Shown here: positions 46,442 to 60,853 of the stretch, piece after piece
Numbering within the stretch: the stretch's first letter is position 1
Layout: every line of letters begins with the position of its first letter
Assembly (NCBI RefSeq): GCF_045037415.1
Contig: NZ_CP173438.1
Source of the DNA: Escherichia coli
Lineage (GTDB): Bacteria; Pseudomonadota; Gammaproteobacteria; Enterobacterales; Enterobacteriaceae
Reading direction: 5' to 3' (one strand)
DNA: 64,000 nt
Notes under the pieces: model-generated
What the model was told of the DNA's origin: nothing
The model's input: the letters and a program-made list of their open reading frames with translations, nothing else
Database searches by the model: none
Translations under genes and position numbers: made by a program

Positions 46442-46692
46442 TGAAAGAATACCGCTATTCCGGCCCGGCCAGCGGCGTCACGCTGTCGGACGGAACCGAA
46501 ATCCTGCTCTGGCCGGGGAAGACGGTTTCCCTGCCGGAGGAGCATGACTACGTGAAGGTACTGGTGGCGCTGAAACATCTGACGCCGGTACCTGAAGAGA
46601 CTAAACCCGCCGGCACACCGGCTGTGCAGTCACCAAAGCGCAGAAGCAGCAGTGACAGCGAAGTGAAAACGGAGGACACCCATGGCAGCTAA
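46438..46692 (+). CDS. Small structural protein (Mu gp38-like)
   Basis: 84 aa; overlaps neighbours by 4 and 11 nt. Confidence 0.35.
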   Translation: MMKEYRYSGPASGVTLSDGTEILLWPGKTVSLPEEHDYVKVLVALKHLTPVPEETKPAGTPAVQSPKRRSSSDSEVKTEDTHGS

Positions 46693-48109
46693 CTATCTGC
46701 ATGGTCCCGAAACCATTGAGGTGGAAAACGGTGCCCGCCCGGTTAAAACGGTGAAATCTGCCGTTATTGGCCTGATTGGTACCGCCCCGATGGGGGATGT
46801 CAATACGCTGGTACAGTGCCTGTCTGAGAAAGACGCAGCGGCATTTGGCAGCCAGTTCACCGGCTTTACCATTCCGCAGGCGCTGGATGCGATTTATGAC
46901 CATGGTGCAGGCACCGTTCTGGTCATTAACGTCCTCGACCCGGCGAAACATAAAACGGCGATCGAGGATGAGGTGGTTACCTTTGACAAATCGACAGGGC
47001 AGGCCAGACTGGCGCATCCGGTTGTCGCTAATGTGGTGGTGAAAAACAGTGAAGGCAGCACCACCCACACGGCGAACACGGACTACCGTGTTGATGCGCA
47101 GGCGGGTGTGCTCACGAACCTGGGCAAGGCTATTGAGGCCGGTGGCAGCGTGAAGGTGAGCTATGAGTACGCGGACCCGTCGAAGGTGACTGCGGCGGAC
47201 ATCATCGGCGGGGTGAACAGCGCCGGAAACCGAACCGGCATGAAGCTGCTTAACGACAGCTTCAACCTGTACGGCTATTTCGCCAAAATTCTGATTGCGC
47301 CGGTGTTCTGCACCCAGAAGAGTGTCGCAGTTGAGCTTATCGCCATGGCAGAGAAGCTGGGCGCGGTAACCTACATTGATGCGCCTGTCGGTACCACCTT
47401 TGCACAGGCTCTGGCAGGTCGTGGCCCGGAAGGCACCATCAACTTCAATACCAGCTCCGACCGCGTCCGTCTGTGCTATCCGCATGTGAAGGTATATGAC
47501 CCGGTGACAAACACAGAGCGTCTGGAGCCGCTCAGCCAGCGTGCAGCAGGTCTGCGTGCCAGAGTCGATCTGGACAAGGGCTACTGGTGGTCATCCTCCA
47601 ATCAGGAGATTCTGGGGATCACCGGCGTGGAGCGCCAGCTGTCCGCGATGATTGATGACCCGCAGAGTGAGGTGAACCTGCTTAACGAACAGGGGATCAC
47701 CACGGTATTCAGCAGTTACGGCAGCGGCCTTCGTCTGTGGGGTAACCGGACGGCAGCATGGCCAACGGTCACCCATATGCGTAACTTTGAGAACGTTCGC
47801 CGCACCGGTGATGTGATCAACGAGTCCATTCGTTATTTCAGCCAGCAGTACATCGACATGCCGATTACTCAGGCGCTGATTGATGCACTGACGGAGTCGG
47901 TCAACGCCTACGGTCGCAAAATGACTGGTGATGGTGCGGTACTGGGCTTCCGTTGCTGGTTTGATCCGGCCCGCAATCCGGAGACGGAGCTGGCCGCCGG
48001 GCACCTGTTGCTGAGCTACAAATATACGCCACCACCGCCGCTGGAGCGACTGACGTTTGAGACTGAGATCACCTCGGAATACCTGTTAACCCTGAAAGGG
48101 GGCAACTGA
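46682..48109 (+). CDS. Tail sheath protein
   Basis: 475 aa; followed by tube gene; contractile-tail module order. Confidence 0.7.
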   Translation: MAANYLHGPETIEVENGARPVKTVKSAVIGLIGTAPMGDVNTLVQCLSEKDAAAFGSQFTGFTIPQALDAIYDHGAGTVLVINVLDPAKHKTAIEDEVVTFDKSTGQARLAHPVVANVVVKNSEGSTTHTANTDYRVDAQAGVLTNLGKAIEAGGSVKVSYEYADPSKVTAADIIGGVNSAGNRTGMKLLNDSFNLYGYFAKILIAPVFCTQKSVAVELIAMAEKLGAVTYIDAPVGTTFAQALAGRGPEGTINFNTSSDRVRLCYPHVKVYDPVTNTERLEPLSQRAAGLRARVDLDKGYWWSSSNQEILGITGVERQLSAMIDDPQSEVNLLNEQGITTVFSSYGSGLRLWGNRTAAWPTVTHMRNFENVRRTGDVINESIRYFSQQYIDMPITQALIDALTESVNAYGRKMTGDGAVLGFRCWFDPARNPETELAAGHLLLSYKYTPPPPLERLTFETEITSEYLLTLKGGN

Positions 48110-48630
48110 TGTCAAAGATTGAGATAAACCGCATCACGAATGCCAACATCTATCTGGATGGTACTAACCTGCTGGGACGGGCTGAGGAAGTTAAACTCCC
48201 CGATGTCTCCATGATTATGCAGGAACACAAGGCGCTGGGGATGGTGGGTAAGGTGGAACTCCCGGCTGGTTTTGACAAACTGGAAGGCGAAATCAAATGG
48301 AACAGCTTTTACCGCGATGCGATGCTGTCTGCCGCGAACCCGTACAGGTCGCTGGCACTGCAGTGTCGTTCCAGCGTCCAGCGCTACAGCTCGCAGGGGC
48401 TGATTGACGAAATCCCGCTGGTCACCTTCCTGACGATTATGTTCAAGAAGAACCCGCTGGGGACGTTCAAACAGCACGAGAACGCCGAGTTCTCCAGTAG
48501 CTTCACCTGCACGTATATCAGACAGGTACTGGATGGTGAAGAGCTGCTGCAACTGGACTATCTGGCCAACATCTTCCGGGTCGGCGGTGTTGATCAACTG
48601 ACTGACTACCGTATCAATATCGGGGGCTGA
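48109..48630 (+). CDS. Tail tube protein
   Basis: 173 aa; ATGA overlap with sheath stop. Confidence 0.6.
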   Translation: MSKIEINRITNANIYLDGTNLLGRAEEVKLPDVSMIMQEHKALGMVGKVELPAGFDKLEGEIKWNSFYRDAMLSAANPYRSLALQCRSSVQRYSSQGLIDEIPLVTFLTIMFKKNPLGTFKQHENAEFSSSFTCTYIRQVLDGEELLQLDYLANIFRVGGVDQLTDYRINIGG

Positions 48631-48914: not shown

Positions 48915-49011
48915 CATCACAGGGGCTCCGGCCCCTTCTTCTTAATCTCCTTTAATATCCGTCACGCGCTTCTCCCGACATACTGCCCTGAACTTACACA
49001 GGAGCACAATC

Positions 49012-49347
49012 ATGTCACAGACCCCATCCGATACTTTTAAATTGTCTTATCCCTTCACCACTGCTGCAGGCACCAGAATTGAGCTGGTTGAACTGAAACG
49101 CCTGACGGTAAAAGACCTGAAGCAGGTGCGCAAAATCAGCAAAAACCCGGCAGACTGGGACGAACCGCTGATTGCCCGCAGTACTGGTCTTCTCCCGGAG
49201 GATCTCGACAATATGGATCTGGCTGATTACCTGCAGTTACAGAAACGATTTCAGCTCATCACGGGGATGGGTGAGAGCAACCAGGGCGCTGACGCAGGCG
49301 CAGGGGCTGCTGGCGAGATGGTTCCGGTTTCAGCCGGGGGAGATTGA
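49012..49347 (+). CDS. Tail assembly chaperone (putative)
   Basis: 111 aa; immediately upstream of tape measure; overlapping second-frame ORF 49172..49429 with acidic C-terminus. Confidence 0.45.
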   Translation: MSQTPSDTFKLSYPFTTAAGTRIELVELKRLTVKDLKQVRKISKNPADWDEPLIARSTGLLPEDLDNMDLADYLQLQKRFQLITGMGESNQGADAGAGAAGEMVPVSAGGD

Positions 49348-49504
49348 TGCCCTCGATACTGACGATCTGGAGATGTGGCTGGAGCAGGCTGAAGAGCAAA
49401 TCAAAAGCGAGTACGGCGACAAATCATAGTACAGACAGCCGCCAGTAGCGGCTGTTCTGCGTTATCCCCTCACGTCTTTTCACCTTCCCCGGAGGTTAAC
49501 CACT

Positions 49505-52456
49505 ATGTCGGGACAGTTTTCAGTCGGCGTTGTTATCGGCGGGATGATTGGCAGCACATTCCGTTCTGCAATGAGCGGTACCCGCCGTGCGCTTGATTCC
49601 CTGAGCGATACCTCACGCCGCCTGCAGGAACGTCAGAACGCTTTAACCCGTGCAACAGAACGTTATGGTCAACTGGGTTCTTCCCGGATGCAGCATCTCA
49701 ACAGCGAGCTGCTGCGGGTAAGCCGCACCATGGAGCAAATTGAGCGCCAGCAGCGCCGTCTGTCAGCGGCATCCGCTACCAGTGATGCGCTGAAAGCTAA
49801 CCGCATGGCGCTGTATGGTCAGGGGATTGAAGCGTATGGCATGGCACAGACTGTTTATCATACGGTTTCCCCTGCCGTTCAGCAGTCCATGTCTTTTCAG
49901 GACAAAATGATTGATATGTCGATCACCGCAAAATATGACAATAAAACGCGGGATGCACTTGCCGGACAGATAAAAGGCTGGGCGCTTAAATACAATCAGT
50001 ATCAGGATGAGCTGCAGGAGGCGATGGGTTCACTCATCAGCGACAATATTGATAATGTGTCAGATATCGGTTTTCTGATGCCGGATATTGCCCGCGCGGC
50101 AACGGCAACACGCACGTCTGCTCAGGACTGGGCAAAAGTGGCCGCAGTCTGGCAAAACTCCCTGAAAGGCGCGGCCAGAGATTTTGGTGCCGTTCAGAAT
50201 ATTATGGCTTATGCCGGTGACCAGGGGTCATTTGAAATCCCGGATCAGGTCAAGTGGATGCAGTCCCTGGCCCCAATGATGGCGGGTATTGCCAGTGGAA
50301 AAGAGGCTGTTGCTGAAATCGGGGCCAGTCTCCAGATAGCAAAAATCGGTGCAGGTTCCACCGACGAAGCAGCCAATAATTTTAAAAACTTTCTTACCAA
50401 AATTTTTGCCCGCGATACTCAGAAACAGTTTGCTGATCTGGGTATTGATTTGCAGGGATCTATTGCGAGTTATAAAGCTGCGGGGATCTCTCCGATTGAA
50501 GGGATGTTGAGTGTTATAGAACGTTACCTCAATGCCAAAAGCCCCGAAGCGCTGGCCGGCTTCAAATCAGCCATGAAAATAAAGAATGATACGGCAAGAG
50601 ATGAGGCACTTCAGGCTCTGGCGAAAAACTTTGGTCTGGGCGATATGTTCGCGGATATGCAGGTCATGGCATTTATCCGCCCGATGCTGGCCAACATGGA
50701 CAGATATCGAGAGATCCGTGCCGGTGCTCTCAGGGCTGCGGATAACGATTTGCTTGCCAGTGCTTATGATCAGCGGCTGAAATCTCCCCTTGAAGCCACT
50801 AAAACACTTATGGTCAGCAGTCGCGATCTGGCAATTACGCTGGGCGATCAATTAGCTCCATCTTTTATTTCTCTGACTCAGGACTTGCTCCCACTCATTC
50901 AGGGGACAAAACACTGGGTGGCGACTCACCCGCAATTTGTCAGTGGGGCTTTTAAGCTCATCAGTGCGCTCCTTGCGATTAAGATAGCGACTGTTGGTCT
51001 CAAACTGGGGCTGAATCTCCTTATTTCCCCCTTTGTGAACGTCTGGAAAACTGCTGTTTTACTCCGGACCAACTGGCATCGACTGACTACCGCACTCGGA
51101 GAAGGTGGCAAATTACGCTGGCTTGTCACTGGATTCAGCCGACTGACCAGCGGAGGACTGAAACTCAGCAAAGTTCTGGCGGGCAGCCTCGTTCGCGGTT
51201 TTATGAGCGCTGCACGTGCCGTTCTCTGGATTGGGCGAGCGCTGATGATGAATCCCATCGGTCTCGTTATCACCGCTGTCGCGGCAGCAGCTTACCTTAT
51301 CTACCGCAACTGGGGGGCAGTCAGTGGCTGGTTTAAACAGCGCTGGGCTGACATTCAGGAAGCCTTTAACGGCGGTATCGCGGGAACTGGTAAGCTGCTG
51401 ATTAACTGGTCGCCGGCAGGCCTGCTCTATAAAGCCTTTGCGGCTGCGCTGAAATATTTCGGCGTTACTCTGCCGGCAAAGTTCACCGACTTCGGTGGCC
51501 ATCTTATCGACGGTTTGATTAACGGTATCAAAAACAAATGGGGGTCGCTCAAATCCAGTGTAACCGGAATGGGTGACAGCATCAGTAGCTGGTTTAAACA
51601 ATGCTGGGCTGACATTCAGGAAGCCTTTAACGGCGGTATCGCGGGAACTGGTAAGCTGCTGATTAACTGGTCGCCGGCAGGTCTGCTCTATAAAGCCTTT
51701 GCAGCTGCGCTGAAATATCTTGGTGTTGATCTGCCGGCAAAGTTTACCGACTTCGGTGGCCATCTTGTCGATGGTCTGATTAACGGTATCAAAAACAAAT
51801 GGGAGTCGCTCAAATCCAGTGTAACCGGAATGGGCGACAGCATCAGTGGCTGGTTCAGCGAAAAGCTGGGCATTCATTCGCCGAGCCGCGTGTTTATGGG
51901 CTTTGGTGACAATATCGCGCAGGGGGCCGCCATTGGCCTGCAGCGGACCACTCCGCTTGCAGCTCTGGCCGGGCAGCGAATGGCCAGTGAACTGCTCCCC
52001 AGAATGCCCGTGAGCATTCAGGGGCCAGAAATACGGGATAACACTTCAGGTGTTCGCTTCAGTATGCCGTTGCCCGATATCAATGGGTTTATGTCGTCTG
52101 CTAAAAATGCGATCGGAGCCGTAATCAATAGTTTGTCTTCCATGCCCGCTATTCCGCTCTCCACCCGGGCATCGATTTTACCAGGGCAACGTCTGGCAAA
52201 TGAGATGACACCGGATGTTCCCCGTATCCCCTCGCCTGAAATCCTGGCTGCCGGATATTCAGGCCGTGGTGCAGCTGCAACCGGCGGTGGAACGTCTGGT
52301 GGTATCCAGGTCAGCTTTAATCCTCAGTTTTTCCTCAATGGCAGGGAAACCACAGCGCCTGCAGGACTGACTGGTGCCCTGAATATGAGTCTGCATGAGC
52401 TGGAAAAAATGCTGGAGCGTCTGCTGGCTCAGAAACAACGTAAGGAGTACCGCTGA
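49505..52456 (+). CDS. Tail tape measure protein
   Basis: 983 aa; largely helical, internal repeats; located between chaperone and baseplate genes. Confidence 0.8.
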   Translation: MSGQFSVGVVIGGMIGSTFRSAMSGTRRALDSLSDTSRRLQERQNALTRATERYGQLGSSRMQHLNSELLRVSRTMEQIERQQRRLSAASATSDALKANRMALYGQGIEAYGMAQTVYHTVSPAVQQSMSFQDKMIDMSITAKYDNKTRDALAGQIKGWALKYNQYQDELQEAMGSLISDNIDNVSDIGFLMPDIARAATATRTSAQDWAKVAAVWQNSLKGAARDFGAVQNIMAYAGDQGSFEIPDQVKWMQSLAPMMAGIASGKEAVAEIGASLQIAKIGAGSTDEAANNFKNFLTKIFARDTQKQFADLGIDLQGSIASYKAAGISPIEGMLSVIERYLNAKSPEALAGFKSAMKIKNDTARDEALQALAKNFGLGDMFADMQVMAFIRPMLANMDRYREIRAGALRAADNDLLASAYDQRLKSPLEATKTLMVSSRDLAITLGDQLAPSFISLTQDLLPLIQGTKHWVATHPQFVSGAFKLISALLAIKIATVGLKLGLNLLISPFVNVWKTAVLLRTNWHRLTTALGEGGKLRWLVTGFSRLTSGGLKLSKVLAGSLVRGFMSAARAVLWIGRALMMNPIGLVITAVAAAAYLIYRNWGAVSGWFKQRWADIQEAFNGGIAGTGKLLINWSPAGLLYKAFAAALKYFGVTLPAKFTDFGGHLIDGLINGIKNKWGSLKSSVTGMGDSISSWFKQCWADIQEAFNGGIAGTGKLLINWSPAGLLYKAFAAALKYLGVDLPAKFTDFGGHLVDGLINGIKNKWESLKSSVTGMGDSISGWFSEKLGIHSPSRVFMGFGDNIAQGAAIGLQRTTPLAALAGQRMASELLPRMPVSIQGPEIRDNTSGVRFSMPLPDINGFMSSAKNAIGAVINSLSSMPAIPLSTRASILPGQRLANEMTPDVPRIPSPEILAAGYSGRGAAATGGGTSGGIQVSFNPQFFLNGRETTAPAGLTGALNMSLHELEKMLERLLAQKQRKEYR
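51328..51849 (+). repeat. Near-perfect tandem duplication (2 x 261 bp) inside tape measure gene
   Basis: Unit starting ctggtttaaacagcgctgggctgacattcaggaagcc at 51328 recurs at 51589; encodes SWFKQxWADIQEAFNGGIAGTGKLLINWSPAGLLYKAFAAALKY... twice. Confidence 0.85.
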
Positions 52457-53340
52457 TGTTTGCCGTACTGGGTGATATTGAGTTTGAGCTGATTACCTAC
52501 TGGGACGGCTTCGAGGCCACGTTCGGCGTCGATTATGCGGAGCATGCCCGCATCGGGGGTAAGCCTGGTCTGCAGTTCGTCGGCGACAGGCTGGACGAAA
52601 TCCAGATAACTCTGGTTTTCCATCAGCATTATTGTGTACCCGATGTGGAGCTGGCGAGACTGCGAACAGCCATGAAAGCCCATCAGGCACTGGCGCTGGT
52701 CTTCGGCAACGGTGACTATCGCGGCTGGTTCGTGATCACCGATGTGACTGCAACCAGCGAGCAGACTGACAGTACCGGCAACGTGCTGGCTGTCAGTGCC
52801 ACCGTGTCTCTCCGGGAATACACCGGTGACCCGAAAAATCCTCTGCAACCACCGGCAATACGCACGAAGCTCCCGGGTGTCGGGGCGGTCTCCGGTGCCA
52901 TACCTTCACCTTCAGGGGTGGCGCAGTTCATCCGCAACGGCGTCAACTATGCGAAACAGGCGCAGTCTGTACTCCAGACCACTATCAGCGCCGTTCGGGT
53001 GACACAGAAAATGAAGGATAACCCCGTTGTCGCACTGACCCGTGTGCCGGGGCTGATGAGCGGACTGGGTAATATCTCCGGGGCTCTGGGGAAAAGTGTT
53101 CCGGCGTTTAACGCACTCTCTGAATCCATGCCCGATGCCATCAGTCTGGCCAGAACAGCCAGCGAAGCAGCCACGTATGTACAGCAGGCACAGTCTGCGC
53201 TGAGTGGTGTGGACAAAAGAAATATTGCAGGTGCTCTGGATACCGTTTCCGGGCAGCTTAACGCCGTCGGCACAGCATTCAACCGCATGTCTCCGGGATT
53301 AAGTGCAATGGCCGCCAGAATACTGACGAGGAGTGTGTGA
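52456..53340 (+). CDS. Tail/baseplate protein following tape measure (Mu N-like position)
   Basis: 294 aa; ATGA overlap with TMP stop. Confidence 0.4.
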   Translation: MFAVLGDIEFELITYWDGFEATFGVDYAEHARIGGKPGLQFVGDRLDEIQITLVFHQHYCVPDVELARLRTAMKAHQALALVFGNGDYRGWFVITDVTATSEQTDSTGNVLAVSATVSLREYTGDPKNPLQPPAIRTKLPGVGAVSGAIPSPSGVAQFIRNGVNYAKQAQSVLQTTISAVRVTQKMKDNPVVALTRVPGLMSGLGNISGALGKSVPAFNALSESMPDAISLARTASEAATYVQQAQSALSGVDKRNIAGALDTVSGQLNAVGTAFNRMSPGLSAMAARILTRSV

Positions 53341-53552
53341 TGTTTCTTGAACATGTTACCCGTGACGGAGAGCGCTGGGATTCGCTGGCATGGCAGTACT
53401 ACGGTGACCCGCTGGGCTATCCCCGGATTATTGCCGCCAATCCGCACGTGGCCATCACGCCGGTGCTGCCCTCCGGGCTGTTGTTACTGATCCCGGTGAT
53501 TGAGGCTGAAGAAGCCCGTACAGAAGAGGATATTGCCCCATGGCTGAGATAA
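53337..53552 (+). CDS. Tail protein X-like small protein
   Basis: 71 aa; size and position match gpX-like proteins upstream of hub gene. Confidence 0.4.
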   Translation: MMFLEHVTRDGERWDSLAWQYYGDPLGYPRIIAANPHVAITPVLPSGLLLLIPVIEAEEARTEEDIAPWLR

Positions 53553-54694
53553 ACAGCACTGCGCAAGTCACATCAGCGTTAACCGGCGTCAGCGATGTGC
53601 TGACACCGGTGTTCACTCTGTGGTATCTGCAGAAAAACATCACCTCTGATATCGCGCCTTATGTCACCCGTGTGACCTGGAGCGATAACATCAAAAATGA
53701 GTCCGATACCATTGAGGTGGAGCTGGACGACACCGATGGCCGCTGGCTGGATAAATGGTATCCGGGCAAGGGTGACACGCTGACGCTGAAAATGGGCTAT
53801 CAGGGCGAGAAGCTGCTGTCCTGCGGTACGTTCTCTATAGACGAGATCGAAGTGAGTTCGCCCGCTTCCGTTGTTTCTATCCGTGGGGTGGCCACCTCGG
53901 TTAACAGTGCCCTGCGGACTAAAACCAGTCGTGGTTTTGAGAACACCACGCTGGCAGCTGTTGCGGGGCGGATTGCCAGAAAGCACCGGCTGAAACTGGT
54001 GGGCAGCATTGAGTCCATCAGAATCGACCGGGTGACCCAGTATGCTGAAACCGACGTGGGTTTTCTGCGCCGGCTGGCCAGCGAGTATGGTTATGCAGTG
54101 AAAGTGGTCAGTGACCAGCTGATTTTTTCTCATCTGGCCACACTGCGCAGTCAGGAGCCGGTCAGGCAGTTAAAACCGCAGGATGTGGCCCGCTTTTCCC
54201 TGCGTGACACCATCAACCGGGTCTATAAATCTGCAAAGGTAAAACACCAGAAAAGCAGCAGTAAAAAACTGATCGTCTACGAAGCTGATGGTGGTACCCG
54301 TGAAAGCGACAAAAAGCTCAAAGGTGGTAAGGTTACCAGCGCTGACTCACTTAAAGTTAACAGCCGCGTCAGCGACCCGGACAGTGCCCGGATTAAAGCG
54401 GATTCAGCACTGGCCAGACATAACGAATACCAGCAGAACGGCTCCCTGACGCTGACGGGAACACCTCAACTGACAGCAGGCAACAAAATTGAACTGGTGA
54501 GTTTTGGGCAGTTATCCGGGCCATGGCTCATAACCACTGCCCGCCATGCGTTTGACCGTAACAGCGGCTACACCACAGAGCTGGAAGTGGCACGGGGGCC
54601 AGTCACAAGAGGGAAAAAACAAAAAACTCAGAAACTCACGGTTTATCACCCGGATGGCAGTACATCGACGGTGATTAAGGAGAAGAAAAAATGA
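53540..54694 (+). CDS. Baseplate hub protein (Mu P / P2 gpD-like)
   Basis: 384 aa; position and size. Confidence 0.55.
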   Translation: MAEINSTAQVTSALTGVSDVLTPVFTLWYLQKNITSDIAPYVTRVTWSDNIKNESDTIEVELDDTDGRWLDKWYPGKGDTLTLKMGYQGEKLLSCGTFSIDEIEVSSPASVVSIRGVATSVNSALRTKTSRGFENTTLAAVAGRIARKHRLKLVGSIESIRIDRVTQYAETDVGFLRRLASEYGYAVKVVSDQLIFSHLATLRSQEPVRQLKPQDVARFSLRDTINRVYKSAKVKHQKSSSKKLIVYEADGGTRESDKKLKGGKVTSADSLKVNSRVSDPDSARIKADSALARHNEYQQNGSLTLTGTPQLTAGNKIELVSFGQLSGPWLITTARHAFDRNSGYTTELEVARGPVTRGKKQKTQKLTVYHPDGSTSTVIKEKKK

Positions 54695-55287
54695 CTGGTG
54701 TCACTCGTCAGGTCGGTACGGTCAGTGCCGTTGATGCCGACAGGGTTCAGGCCCGCGTTCGTCTGCCTGAATGCGATAACCTGCGCACAAACTGGCTTAA
54801 CGTGCTGCAGCGCAATACCCAGGATAACAAAGATTACTGGCTCCCTGACGTGGGGGAGCAGGTTGAGGTGCTGCTCGATGCCAACGGCGAGGATGGTGTT
54901 ATTCTGGGCGCGGTGTATTCAGACGTCGATAAACCACCGTTCAGTGACAAAAATATCCGGGGAACCCGGTTTGCTGATGGTGCAGAGTACAGCTACAACC
55001 GGAAGACGCACACTCTGATCATCCGGGGCGGCATTGAGCATATTGTCATTGAGTGTGGTGCTGATGTGGTATTGAAAACACAGAAAGCCACGATTGACGC
55101 ACCGGAAACCGAACTTACCGGAGATCTGCGTGTCAGGGGTAAGCTGATTTACGAAGGAGGCATGGCGGGTTCTGGTGGTGAAGGTGTTACCGCGACCATC
55201 CATGGCAATATCGAGATTAAAGGGAATGTCCATGCCACGGGCAGTATGTTGTCTGATGGCGAAAACTCCAGCCACCACTCCCACTGA
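54691..55287 (+). CDS. Baseplate spike protein (gpV-like)
   Basis: 198 aa; Gly-rich C-terminal region; position between hub and W-like gene. Confidence 0.55.
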   Translation: MTGVTRQVGTVSAVDADRVQARVRLPECDNLRTNWLNVLQRNTQDNKDYWLPDVGEQVEVLLDANGEDGVILGAVYSDVDKPPFSDKNIRGTRFADGAEYSYNRKTHTLIIRGGIEHIVIECGADVVLKTQKATIDAPETELTGDLRVRGKLIYEGGMAGSGGEGVTATIHGNIEIKGNVHATGSMLSDGENSSHHSH

Positions 55288-55341
55288 GCTTTTTAAACGC
55301 CTTTAATATCAGCGTTCCCGCACGGGGGCAATACTGCCCCC

Positions 55342-55689
55342 ATGAAAACAACCTCAGTATTCTGGCAACCAGCCCTGCAGGCTCCCGGCGAAATTGTCCG
55401 GGGGCTGGATGATATCCGGCAGGCGATTCAAATTATCCTGCGGACTCCCCGCGGCAGCGACCCGCATCGCCCGGAGTTCGGCAGCAATCTGCATCTTTAT
55501 ATCGACTGGCCTGTAGACCGGGCCATTCCGCATGTGGTGCGCGAATCCGTCGATGCCATCCGGCGCTGGGAGCCCCGCTGCCAGCTTATGTCAGTTAAAC
55601 CCGCCGTCGACGGCGAACATCTTACGCTCCGGGTGAGCTGGAAAGGCTCAGACGGACAGACCCGGACTCAGGAGCTGCTATGGCGCTGA
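55342..55689 (+). CDS. Baseplate wedge protein (gpW/gp25-like)
   Basis: 115 aa; precedes J-like gene. Confidence 0.5.
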   Translation: MKTTSVFWQPALQAPGEIVRGLDDIRQAIQIILRTPRGSDPHRPEFGSNLHLYIDWPVDRAIPHVVRESVDAIRRWEPRCQLMSVKPAVDGEHLTLRVSWKGSDGQTRTQELLWR

Positions 55690-56783
55690 CAGAACCCGAT
55701 TTTATTGAACGCGATGCCGACAAAATCACGGCAGAAATGATTGCGAAGTATGAAGCGGATACCGGCAAAACGCTGTACCCGGCACAGGCAGAACGTCTGC
55801 TGATTGATCTGTGGGCCTATCGCGAAATGCTGGTCAGGGTTGCGGTACAGGAGGCAGCAAAGCAGAATCTGGTCGCCTTTGCCCGTGAGCCGATGATTGA
55901 TTACCTCGGTGAACTGGTCGGTGTATACCGTCTTGCCGCGCAGCCTGCCACCACCACGCTCCAGTTCTCCGTAGATGAGGCACTGGCCATTGATGTGCTG
56001 ATCCCGGCAGGCACCCGCGTCAGCGCTTCCGACAGCGTTATTTTTGCCACCGATACAGATGTGGTACTGAAGGCCGGATTGCTGCTGGTCAATGTCACGG
56101 CCACCTGTACCGAACCCGGTACCGCTGGTAACGGCTGGCAACCTGCGCAGGTCAGTCAGTTACTCGATGAGATTGATAACGTTAACCTGCTGGTGAGCAA
56201 TCTGATGGCCAGTTCCGGCGGTTCAGAACAGGAAGACGATGACAGGCTCCGGGAGCGTATCAGGCTGGCCCCGGAGTCATTCACCAATGCCGGAAGCCGT
56301 GGCGCATACCGCTTTCATGCCATGCAGGCCCATCCCAACATTGTCGATGTTGCTGTGCTTTCCCCGGTTCCCGGGACCGTAGATCTGTATCCGCTGCTCA
56401 GTACCGGTCTGCCGGACGGCGGTGTTCTCACGCTGGTAGAGAGTTTCTGCTCTGATGAGAAAGTCAGGCCACTCACTGATACAGTGCGGGCTAAAACACC
56501 AGTGAAGGTGGATTACACCATTGAAGCCAGGATTACGATCTATCGTGATCAGGATGCCAGGTCTGTAAAAGATGCCGCTAACAGCGCCATACAGAACTGG
56601 GTGGCATCACGTGCCGCCACGCTGGGGCGCGATATTGTCCCCAGCCAGATTATCAGTGCATTGTCCGTTTCCGGGGTGTACCAGGTTGAACTGGTGACAC
56701 CGGCACTGCGGGTGGTGGCAGAAAACGAATGGGCAAACTGTACGGCAATCACTCTTAACATGACTGGAGTGTCTGATGACTGA
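55680..56783 (+). CDS. Baseplate J-like protein
   Basis: 367 aa; canonical W-J-I order. Confidence 0.65.
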   Translation: MALTEPDFIERDADKITAEMIAKYEADTGKTLYPAQAERLLIDLWAYREMLVRVAVQEAAKQNLVAFAREPMIDYLGELVGVYRLAAQPATTTLQFSVDEALAIDVLIPAGTRVSASDSVIFATDTDVVLKAGLLLVNVTATCTEPGTAGNGWQPAQVSQLLDEIDNVNLLVSNLMASSGGSEQEDDDRLRERIRLAPESFTNAGSRGAYRFHAMQAHPNIVDVAVLSPVPGTVDLYPLLSTGLPDGGVLTLVESFCSDEKVRPLTDTVRAKTPVKVDYTIEARITIYRDQDARSVKDAANSAIQNWVASRAATLGRDIVPSQIISALSVSGVYQVELVTPALRVVAENEWANCTAITLNMTGVSDD

Positions 56784-60227: not shown

Positions 60228-60280
60228 AATCCTCCCCACATTATCTCAGTACTTTAACCACTCAAAAGGGAGTATTTTTA

Positions 60281-60853
60281 ATGCTGATTGGCTACATACG
60301 TGTGTCAACAAATGACCAAAACACAGATTTGCAACGCAATGCATTAATGTGCGCAGGATGTGAACAGATTTTTGAGGACAAAATGAGCGGAACCAAGTCG
60401 GAACGACCAGGCCTGAAACGCGCTTTAAAGTGCCTTAAAAGAGGGGATACATTGGTGGTCTGGAAGCTGGATCGGTTGGGTAGAAGAATGAAACACCTCA
60501 TTGCTCTCACAGAAGAGCTACGCGCAAAAGGTGTCAATTTTCGCAGTCTGACGGATTCAATCGATACCAGCACTCCGATGGGAAGGTTCTTTTTTCATAT
60601 GATGGGTGCACTGGCAGAAATGGAGCGTGAACTGATAGTTGAGCGCACGCTGGCTGGACTGGCTGCTGCGCGAGCACAAGGAAGAGTTGGAGGACGTCGC
60701 CCGAAACTGACGAAGGAGCAGCATGAGCAGATCGCAAGATTGCTCCAGAAAGGGTATGACAGAAAGCGGCTGGCAATTATCTATGATATTGGACTGTCAA
60801 CGATCTACCGCTATCACCCTGTTGGGACTGTCATAACGCAACCTGAAATGTAA
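60281..60853 (+). CDS. Serine-recombinase DNA invertase (Gin/Hin/Pin/Cin family)
   Basis: Within ORF 60152..60853; ATG at 60281 after SD aaaggga; N-terminal MLIGYIRVSTNDQNTDLQ with catalytic Ser; C-terminal HTH. Confidence 0.85.
   Translation: MLIGYIRVSTNDQNTDLQRNALMCAGCEQIFEDKMSGTKSERPGLKRALKCLKRGDTLVVWKLDRLGRRMKHLIALTEELRAKGVNFRSLTDSIDTSTPMGRFFFHMMGALAEMERELIVERTLAGLAAARAQGRVGGRRPKLTKEQHEQIARLLQKGYDRKRLAIIYDIGLSTIYRYHPVGTVITQPEM

What the first reader, a model, noticed from the sequence alone, without database searches (positions are those of the whole stretch)
51328..51849. Recent 261-bp tandem duplication inside the tape measure gene
Two consecutive 87-aa units are almost identical at nucleotide level, implying a recent in-frame duplication. 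Tape measure length sets tail length, so this would lengthen the tail by roughly 13 nm; it could also be an assembly artefact.
Basis: partly seen in the sequence, partly recalled or inferred. Interest (0 to 1): 0.45.

Follow-up and report, generated by a model that had tools for sequence, protein, structure and literature searches.

The report
Copy-number-variable repeat in tape measure gene
The tail tape measure gene of a Mu-like prophage common in E. coli ST131 really carries two in-frame copies of an 87-residue module, but the duplication is old and widely shared, and related prophages carry one, two or three copies, so it is an ordinary though tidy case of tape-measure length variation.

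Summary
The repeat is real. It spans 51321-51855, has a 261-bp period and 2.0 copies, has no indels, and lies in frame in the 983-aa tape measure ORF (49505-52456). The copies are 93.9% identical (16/261 nt, 7/87 aa; dS 0.17, dN/dS 0.21), so they are not near-identical.

It is not an assembly artefact. 370 complete E. coli genomes carry the gene at >=99% identity, and many of them are 100% identical over all 2952 nt.

It is not recent. The same diverged first-unit and last-unit types occur in alleles whose flanks differ by about 4%. More distant relatives, including Klebsiella phage KP12, have a single unit that mixes states of both types.

Copy number is polymorphic. Among 635 carrier genomes, about 420 have two units, about 150 have three, and 64 have one. 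No allele has four.

Hybrid units in the one- and three-unit alleles mark unequal homologous crossovers. One example is a one-unit allele that is an exact unit1/unit2 chimera of the window allele.

The predicted gain of about 13 nm of tail per unit follows from published tape-measure ruler experiments and was not tested here.

This is a new member of a known kind and is of modest interest.

The parts
49505..52456 (+). Tail tape measure protein gene (983 aa) of a Mu-like transposable prophage with a P2-type contractile tail
   Evidence: ORF. Pfam PF10145 PhageMin_Tail matches aa 159-340 at E 1.3e-20. PHROG 28, 794 and 58, all 'tail length tape measure protein', match. RefSeq annotates the identical gene as a tape measure protein.
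51323..51583 (+). Repeat unit 1 (aa 607-693), the first-unit type: SGWFKQR...YFGVT...HLIDG...KWGSLK
   Evidence: Haplotype comparison across 17 alleles.
51584..51844 (+). Repeat unit 2 (aa 694-780), the last-unit type: SSWFKQC...YLGVD...HLVDG...KWESLK. It differs by only 4 nt from the last unit of three-unit alleles.
51845..51855 (+). Start of a third period (SGWF...). This is the shared boundary sequence that extends the repeat beyond two full units.
   Evidence: TRF end coordinate 51855 and the offset-261 identity trace.
51971..52183 (+). A second length-variable segment of the same gene (aa 823-893, 71 aa). It is absent from the 820-825-aa relatives, and its first 21 residues resemble the start of the following segment.
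   Evidence: Alignment A1. Local alignment score 49 against shuffles of 23.7 +/- 4.4, reached by 1 of 500 shuffles.
49012..49347 (+). Tail assembly chaperone (gpE-like) immediately upstream of the tape measure gene
   Evidence: ORF. PHROG 166 'tail protein' at E 2.8e-32. Annotated as 'phage tail assembly protein' in identical genomes.
46682..48630 (+). Tail sheath (46682-48109) and tail tube (48109-48630) genes. The number of sheath and tube rings is what the tape measure is expected to set.
   Evidence: ORFs. Annotations of the matching genes in PhiKM and RefSeq genomes.

Best explanation
The two 261-bp units are an old, fixed, in-frame tandem duplication of a conserved, mostly helical 87-residue module of the tape measure protein. 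The gene belongs to a Mu-like prophage inserted between aroA and ycaL in ST131-type E. coli.

Because the units remain about 94% identical and lie head to tail, they act as a substrate for unequal homologous recombination. Across E. coli this has repeatedly produced one-, two- and three-unit alleles of 896, 983 and 1070 aa.

By the established ruler mechanism, the tube polymerises along the tape measure protein and stops at its end, at about 0.15 nm per residue. Each unit should therefore add about 13 nm, roughly three tube and sheath rings, to the tail.

Shown here: the repeat, its age relative to allele divergence, the copy-number polymorphism and the recombinant units. Inferred: the effect on tail length and any selective value.
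For: - **Repeat and reading frame:**
- **Tape-measure identity and context:**
- **Not an artefact:** 635 of 5426 complete E. coli genomes carry the gene family, and 370 carry it at >=99% identity, many at 100% over all 2952 nt.
- **Copy-number census:**
  - A flank-only query gave spans of 1935 nt (two units) in 40 sampled rows and 2195-2196 nt (three units) in 14, out of 54 full-coverage rows spaced evenly down the ranking. No four-unit span appeared.
  - A one-unit query found 64 genomes with a single unit. Three of them match the window's flanks at 100%.
  - Protein lengths in the 5.8-billion-sequence collection cluster at 1070, 983 and 896 aa. Apart from one odd 1084-aa protein, nothing longer than 1070 aa appears among the 120 listed hits.
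- **Age:**
  - dS 0.17 and dN/dS 0.21 between the window's two units, compared with dS 0.017 between the two newest units of a three-unit allele.
  - First-type and last-type units are shared across flank haplotypes that differ at 70 of 1818 nt.
  - Outgroup single units (L006-L008) carry a mixture of both types' states.
- **Recombination signatures:**
  - L013, L015 and L016 carry the parental two-unit arrangement.
  - L004 and L014 have a middle unit that is a last-type 5' half joined to a first-type 3' half.
  - L002 and L018 have a single unit made of a first-type 5' half and a last-type 3' half, on the same flank haplotype as L004 (6 of 1818 differences).
  - L017 is an exact chimera of window unit 1 (5') and window unit 2 (3'), including the private base at unit site 252.
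- **Helical module:** the AlphaFold2 model is almost all helix across the unit, at mean pLDDT 65.
- **Ruler mechanism:** PMC3271669, PMC5099701 and PMC8718954.
- **Recurrence in the wider family:** of 91 near-full-length representatives that contain the module, 24 have two copies, 1 has three and 1 has four.
Against: - No tail length was measured, and no solved structure contains this protein.
- The structure model has low confidence and is a monomer.
- The module lies next to hydrophobic segments and about 200 residues from the C-terminus. Part of it could sit in the baseplate hub, or act after ejection, rather than measure tube length.
- Some one-unit alleles, especially the mosaic 896-aa proteins from draft assemblies (P0054 and P0078), may be collapsed assemblies rather than real deletions.
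- The counts of two- and three-unit alleles are extrapolated from a 60-row sample and are not a full enumeration.
- Gene conversion between units blurs any dating.
Confidence: 0.8

Rival explanations
1. Assembly artefact: the second copy was created by misassembly and the true gene has one unit.
For: Tandem repeats can be misassembled. The phage PhiKM record breaks at exactly this repeat with a 100-N gap.
Against: - The two copies differ at 16 sites, so this is not a simple duplication of reads.
- The identical two-unit gene occurs in hundreds of independently finished genomes from many laboratories.
- The longest identical run, about 78 nt, is shorter than a typical read.
- Artefacts would be expected to collapse the repeat, not expand it.
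Confidence: 0.02
2. A recent, strain- or clone-specific duplication.
For: Identity of 94% is high, and more distant relatives have one unit. Truly recent unit gains do occur at this locus: units 1 and 2 of L003 differ at only 3 nt.
Against: - dS between the window's units is 0.17.
- The window's unit 2 is only 4 nt from the last unit of alleles on other flank haplotypes.
- The same two-type architecture is present in about 570 genomes of diverse origin, including human, bird, cattle and seawater isolates.
Confidence: 0.05
3. The duplication is real but does not change tail length. The module would belong to a part of the tape measure that lies in the baseplate hub or acts after ejection, in membrane or periplasm crossing. 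Copy number would then tune envelope penetration or be neutral.
For: - The module directly follows strongly hydrophobic, transmembrane-like segments at aa ~476-605 (sequence).
- It precedes the conserved GIHSPSRVF motif.
- Tape measure proteins are proposed to form the membrane channel after ejection (PMC8718954).
- In TP901-1 about 127 residues do not contribute to tail length (PMC5099701).
Against: In TP901-1, deletions in the hydrophobic region as well as in the repeats shortened the tail in proportion to their size. The module is predicted to be helical, like the ruler segments. Two units total 174 residues, which is large relative to any hub cavity.
Confidence: 0.2
4. The prophage is defective, and the copy-number changes are neutral decay of a gene that is no longer used.
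For: RefSeq marks some three-unit alleles and some tail-fibre genes of this prophage as pseudogenes.
Against: - The 'pseudogene' tape measure ORFs are uninterrupted at 1070 aa.
- Every length change found is in frame.
- dN/dS between units and between alleles is 0.0-0.3.
- A near-identical element was deposited as an isolated phage, PhiKM.
- The prophage keeps its transposase, MuB-like gene, Mor, and head, tail and lysis genes.
Confidence: 0.08

Closest known systems
Tape measure repeat units with duplication and loss histories (Belcaid, Bergeron & Poisson 2011, PMC3271669), for example the 44-aa block present three or four times in Bacillus prophage tape measures
   Same: These are in-frame tandem blocks inside a tape measure gene whose number differs between related prophages. 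Orthologous units are more alike than paralogous ones, which shows a shared duplication history.
   Different: The unit here is a large 87-aa module with no significant 11- or 18-residue aromatic periodicity (z about 0.9-1.0). Copy number varies from one to three within a single bacterial species, and the recombinant units can be read directly.
Engineered deletions and duplications in lambda gpH, TP901-1 TMP and T4 gp29 that change tail length proportionally (Katsura & Hendrix as cited in PMC3271669; Mahony et al. 2016, PMC5099701; gp29 in PMC8718954)
   Same: They share the same logic: residues added in frame to the tape measure should lengthen the tail at about 0.15 nm per residue. The T4 case shows that the ruler also applies to contractile tails.
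   Different: Those were laboratory constructs with measured tails. Here the alleles are natural and no tail has been measured.
Single-unit tape measures of related prophages and phages: Klebsiella phage KP12 (OM835952) and E. coli JNEC-KY180 and IAL7250, at 820-825 aa
   Same: They have the same gene order, N- and C-termini, hydrophobic segments, module and GIHSPSRVF motif.
   Different: They carry one module and also lack the 71-aa segment at aa 823-893. The window protein is 158-163 residues longer.

Membership tests
Phage tail tape measure protein (Pfam PF10145 PhageMin_Tail; PHROG 28/794/58) | Significant match to tape-measure profile models | tested here: met
   PF10145 matches aa 159-340 at E 1.3e-20. 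phrog_28 matches at E 9.8e-136, and phrog_794 and phrog_58 also match; all are described as 'tail length tape measure protein'.
Phage tail tape measure protein (Pfam PF10145 PhageMin_Tail; PHROG 28/794/58) | Gene lies after the sheath, tube and tail-assembly chaperone genes and before the gpU/X/D-type tail and baseplate genes | tested here: met
   ORF order, and annotations of identical or near-identical loci.
Phage tail tape measure protein (Pfam PF10145 PhageMin_Tail; PHROG 28/794/58) | Long, predominantly alpha-helical protein | tested here: inconclusive
   The AlphaFold2 model of the module with its flanks is almost entirely helical, but mean pLDDT is only 65 and pTM is 0.30. Only 177 residues were modelled.
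Phage tail tape measure protein (Pfam PF10145 PhageMin_Tail; PHROG 28/794/58) | Protein length sets tail length | not testable with these tools
   This needs electron microscopy of virions from one-, two- and three-unit alleles.
Tape measures with 11-residue (or 11-11-18) aromatic-marker repeats (Belcaid 2011; Mahony 2016) | Trp/Phe recurring at 11- or 18-residue spacing | tested here: not met
   Autocorrelation of W/F over the hydrophobic region, one unit and the downstream flank gave z 0.90 at lag 11 and z 1.01 at lag 18, against 2000 shuffles.
Copy-number-variable tandem repeat maintained by unequal homologous recombination | Head-to-tail units of constant period, with alleles that differ by whole units | tested here: met
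   Alleles carry 1, 2 or 3 units of exactly 261 nt, in genes of 2691, 2952 and 3213 nt.
Copy-number-variable tandem repeat maintained by unequal homologous recombination | Hybrid units at the junctions of gain and loss alleles | tested here: met
   Hybrid units are the middle unit of L004 and L014, the single unit of L002 and L018, and the single unit of L017, which is a chimera of window unit 1 and unit 2.

The most novel reading that the evidence does not exclude
The one-, two- and three-unit alleles sit on otherwise near-identical Mu-like prophages. They would form a natural allelic series of contractile tails differing in steps of about 13 nm (about three rings). Copy number would be switched repeatedly by unequal recombination and possibly selected by differences in host envelope or capsule thickness. 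The series would allow a direct test of how a continuous ruler is reconciled with discrete tube and sheath rings in a myovirus.
Probability: 0.3. Interest if true: 0.45.

Novelty: new member of a known kind. Interest (0 to 1): 0.3.

Why it matters
Internal duplications and losses in tape measure genes are an established route of tail-length evolution, so the finding does not change the overall picture.

Its practical value has three parts:
- It gives a well-populated natural series of one-, two- and three-unit alleles, in a prophage carried by the pandemic ST131 lineage. The series could be used to measure nm per residue and ring quantisation in a contractile tail without any engineering.
- It shows that the recombination history of the repeat can be read directly from hybrid units.
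- It flags a recurrent annotation and assembly problem. Intact three-unit genes are called pseudogenes, phage assemblies are gapped at the repeat, and draft assemblies may have collapsed it.

Tried and rejected
- **Census by query coverage.** Counting copy-number classes from the coverage figures of the whole-gene search does not work. BLAST reuses a single subject unit for several query units, so a one-unit genome scored 100% coverage (H46). I replaced this with a flank-only query read by record span and a one-unit query.
- **11/18-residue aromatic periodicity.** It is not significant, so the repeat is not of the Belcaid type.
- **Solved structures.** A sequence search of the Protein Data Bank found no match at E <= 0.01.
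- **Literature on this prophage.** Searches for an ST131 Mu-like prophage at aroA, and for phage PhiKM, returned nothing relevant.
- **Antisense ORF.** The minus-strand ORF 51113-51877 (254 aa) overlaps the repeat. I did not pursue it as coding, because differences between units and alleles show purifying selection in the plus-strand frame (dN/dS 0.0-0.3) and the plus-strand product matches tape-measure profiles. I did not test it further.
- **Ring quantisation.** The periods of older duplications of the module in distant tape measures (76, 87, 113-114 aa and others) show no common multiple, so I make no claim.
- **A single reciprocal event.** The one-unit (L002) and three-unit (L004) alleles share a flank haplotype, but their crossover points differ (unit sites 105-130 versus 59-75). 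They come from separate events of the same kind.

Full report
**1. The observation**

Tandem Repeats Finder reports a single array in 49000-56000. It lies at 51321-51855, with period 261, 2.0 copies, 93% matches, no indels and score 958. Comparing each base with the base 261 nt downstream shows identity starting at 51321 and ending at 51594 in the first copy.

The array lies inside the 983-aa ORF 49505-52456 on the plus strand. The codon-aligned units are 51323-51583 (aa 607-693) and 51584-51844 (aa 694-780). They differ at 16 of 261 nt, in 14 codons, 7 of which change the amino acid.

**2. What the gene is**

- The ORF matches Pfam PF10145 PhageMin_Tail and several PHROG 'tail length tape measure protein' families.
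- It follows the sheath, tube and gpE-like chaperone genes and precedes gpU/X/D-like tail genes.
- The surrounding element is a Mu-like transposable prophage. It has a DDE transposase, an ExeA/MuB-like gene, Gam, Mor, a Mu-type head module, a P2-type contractile tail, and an invertase next to the tail-fibre genes. In an identical-gene genome it lies between aroA and ycaL.
- A near-identical element is deposited as Escherichia phage PhiKM, labelled Bcepmuvirus.

**3. Not an artefact**

A megablast of the gene against 5426 complete E. coli genomes finds it in 635. Of these, 370 match at >=99% identity, and many are 100% identical over all 2952 nt. Most of the identical ones are O25b:H4-ST131 isolates sequenced by many groups.

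Assembly trouble at this locus runs in the opposite direction:
- The PhiKM record has a 100-N gap that starts inside unit 1 and resumes at unit position 22.
- RefSeq marks several three-unit genes as split pseudogenes, although the 1070-aa ORF is uninterrupted.
- Some 896-aa proteins from draft assemblies are odd mosaics of the two units and may be collapsed assemblies.

**4. Copy number is polymorphic**

Loci fetched from E. coli genomes carry one unit (gene 2691 nt, 896 aa), two units (2952 nt, 983 aa) or three units (3213 nt, 1070 aa). The period is always exactly 261 nt.

- **Flank-only query.** A query made only of the unique flanks gave 54 full-coverage rows in an evenly spaced sample. 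Forty had a span of 1935 nt (two units), 14 had 2195-2196 nt (three units), and none had four.
- **One-unit query.** This found 64 genomes with a single unit. Three match the window's flanks at 100% and 14 lie on a divergent haplotype. The remaining roughly 47 also lack a 71-aa segment further downstream.
- **Scaled estimate.** Among the 635 carriers this gives roughly 420 two-unit, 150 three-unit and 64 one-unit alleles.
- **Protein collection.** In the 5.8-billion-protein collection, relatives cluster at 1070, 983 and 896 aa. Apart from one odd 1084-aa protein, nothing longer than 1070 aa is among the 120 listed hits.

**5. Age and mechanism**

Units fall into recognisable types: a first-unit type (3' half 'A') and a last-unit type (3' half 'B'). 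There are also two variants of the 5' half.

- The window's unit 2 is only 4 nt from the last unit of three-unit alleles on other flank haplotypes, but 16 nt from its own neighbour.
- Between the window's units, dS is 0.17 and dN/dS is 0.21. The two newest units of a three-unit allele differ at only 3 nt, with dS 0.017.
- Single units of more distant relatives carry a mixture of A and B states, so both copies have diverged since the duplication. These relatives are E. coli JNEC-KY180, E. coli IAL7250 and Klebsiella phage KP12.

The duplication therefore predates the diversification of this prophage lineage.

The gain and loss alleles carry the hybrid units expected from unequal homologous crossover:
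- L013, L015 and L016 have the parental two-unit arrangement.
- L004 and L014 have a middle unit with a last-type 5' part and a first-type 3' part.
- L002 and L018 have a single unit with a first-type 5' part and a last-type 3' part. Their flank haplotype is the same as that of L004 (6 of 1818 differences).
- L017 (TUM14759) is an exact chimera of the window's unit 1 and unit 2. It includes a base otherwise seen only in the last unit of the window-type alleles.

The crossover points differ among alleles, so several independent events are recorded.

**6. The module in the wider family**

A search with one 87-aa unit against 1.84 billion representative proteins found 594 proteins at E <= 0.001. 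Among the 91 listed proteins of at least 700 aa, 65 have one copy, 24 have two, one has three and one has four.

The periods vary: 76 aa in ten proteins, and 87, 113-114 and other values in the rest. Identity between copies is 22-71% for the periods near unit length. Duplication of this module is therefore a recurrent, older theme in related tape measures.

The module shows no significant 11- or 18-residue aromatic periodicity. It is not one of the short-unit arrays described by Belcaid et al.

**7. Likely consequence**

Published work establishes that tail tubes polymerise along the tape measure protein and stop at its end (PMC8718954). It also shows that in-frame deletions shorten tails in proportion to their size (PMC3271669; PMC5099701). 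In TP901-1, 118 nm corresponds to about 810 length-determining residues, and deletions in the hydrophobic region also count.

An AlphaFold2 model of the module with its flanks is almost entirely helical, though at low confidence (mean pLDDT 65).

At 0.146-0.15 nm per residue, 87 residues predict 12.7-13 nm. With rings of 38-43 Å, that is about three tube and sheath rings per unit. This step is inference, because no tail was measured and no solved structure matches the protein.

The main rival is that the module lies outside the measuring part of the protein, or acts after ejection, and so does not affect tail length.

**8. Verdict**

- This is a real, in-frame, old and widely shared tandem duplication in a tape measure gene.
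- The locus is recombinationally active, and one to three copies segregate in E. coli.
- The phenomenon belongs to a known kind. Its interest lies mainly in offering a ready-made natural series for testing the ruler in a contractile tail, and in serving as a cautionary case for annotation and assembly.

Noticed in passing
window 51971-52183: There is a second length polymorphism in the same tape measure gene. A 71-aa segment (aa 823-893) is absent from the 820-825-aa relatives. Its first 21 residues (GQRMASELLPRMPVSIQGPEI) resemble the start of the next segment (GQRLANEMTPDVPRIPSPEI). It may be an older duplication or an insertion at a repeated motif.
   Followed up: partly
L004 1501-4713; L005 1501-4713; L011; L014: RefSeq/PGAP annotates three-unit tape measure genes as two partial pseudogenes. 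In L004 and L005 the 1070-aa ORF is uninterrupted; the ORFs of L011 and L014 were not checked. This looks like an annotation artefact caused by the repeat.
   Followed up: yes
L001 7915-8014 (PhiKM PQ738613): The only closely matching isolated-phage record has a 100-N sequencing gap exactly inside the repeat, so its copy number is unknown.
   Followed up: yes
proteins P0006 (1084 aa) and P0053 (995 aa): These are other in-frame length variants of the same protein. One has a 101-aa duplication running from the hydrophobic region into unit 1, and the other has a 12-aa duplication (GDSISSWFKQCW) at the unit junction. They are either real alternative duplication endpoints or misassemblies.
   Followed up: no
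proteins P0054 and P0078 (896 aa): These single-unit proteins sit on the window's flank haplotype, and their unit is an irregular mosaic of unit-1 and unit-2 states. This is consistent with a collapsed short-read assembly or with gene conversion.
   Followed up: no
window about 60280-60850 (from L009 3148-3720) and the adjacent tail-fibre genes: The prophage ends with a serine recombinase (invertase-like) next to tail-fibre and fibre-assembly genes. Some of these are annotated as partial, which suggests a Mu G-segment-like invertible host-range region.
   Followed up: no
window 51113-51877, minus strand: A 254-aa antisense ORF spans the whole repeat. I judged it non-coding because the substitution pattern fits the plus-strand frame, but I did not test it further.
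   Followed up: partly
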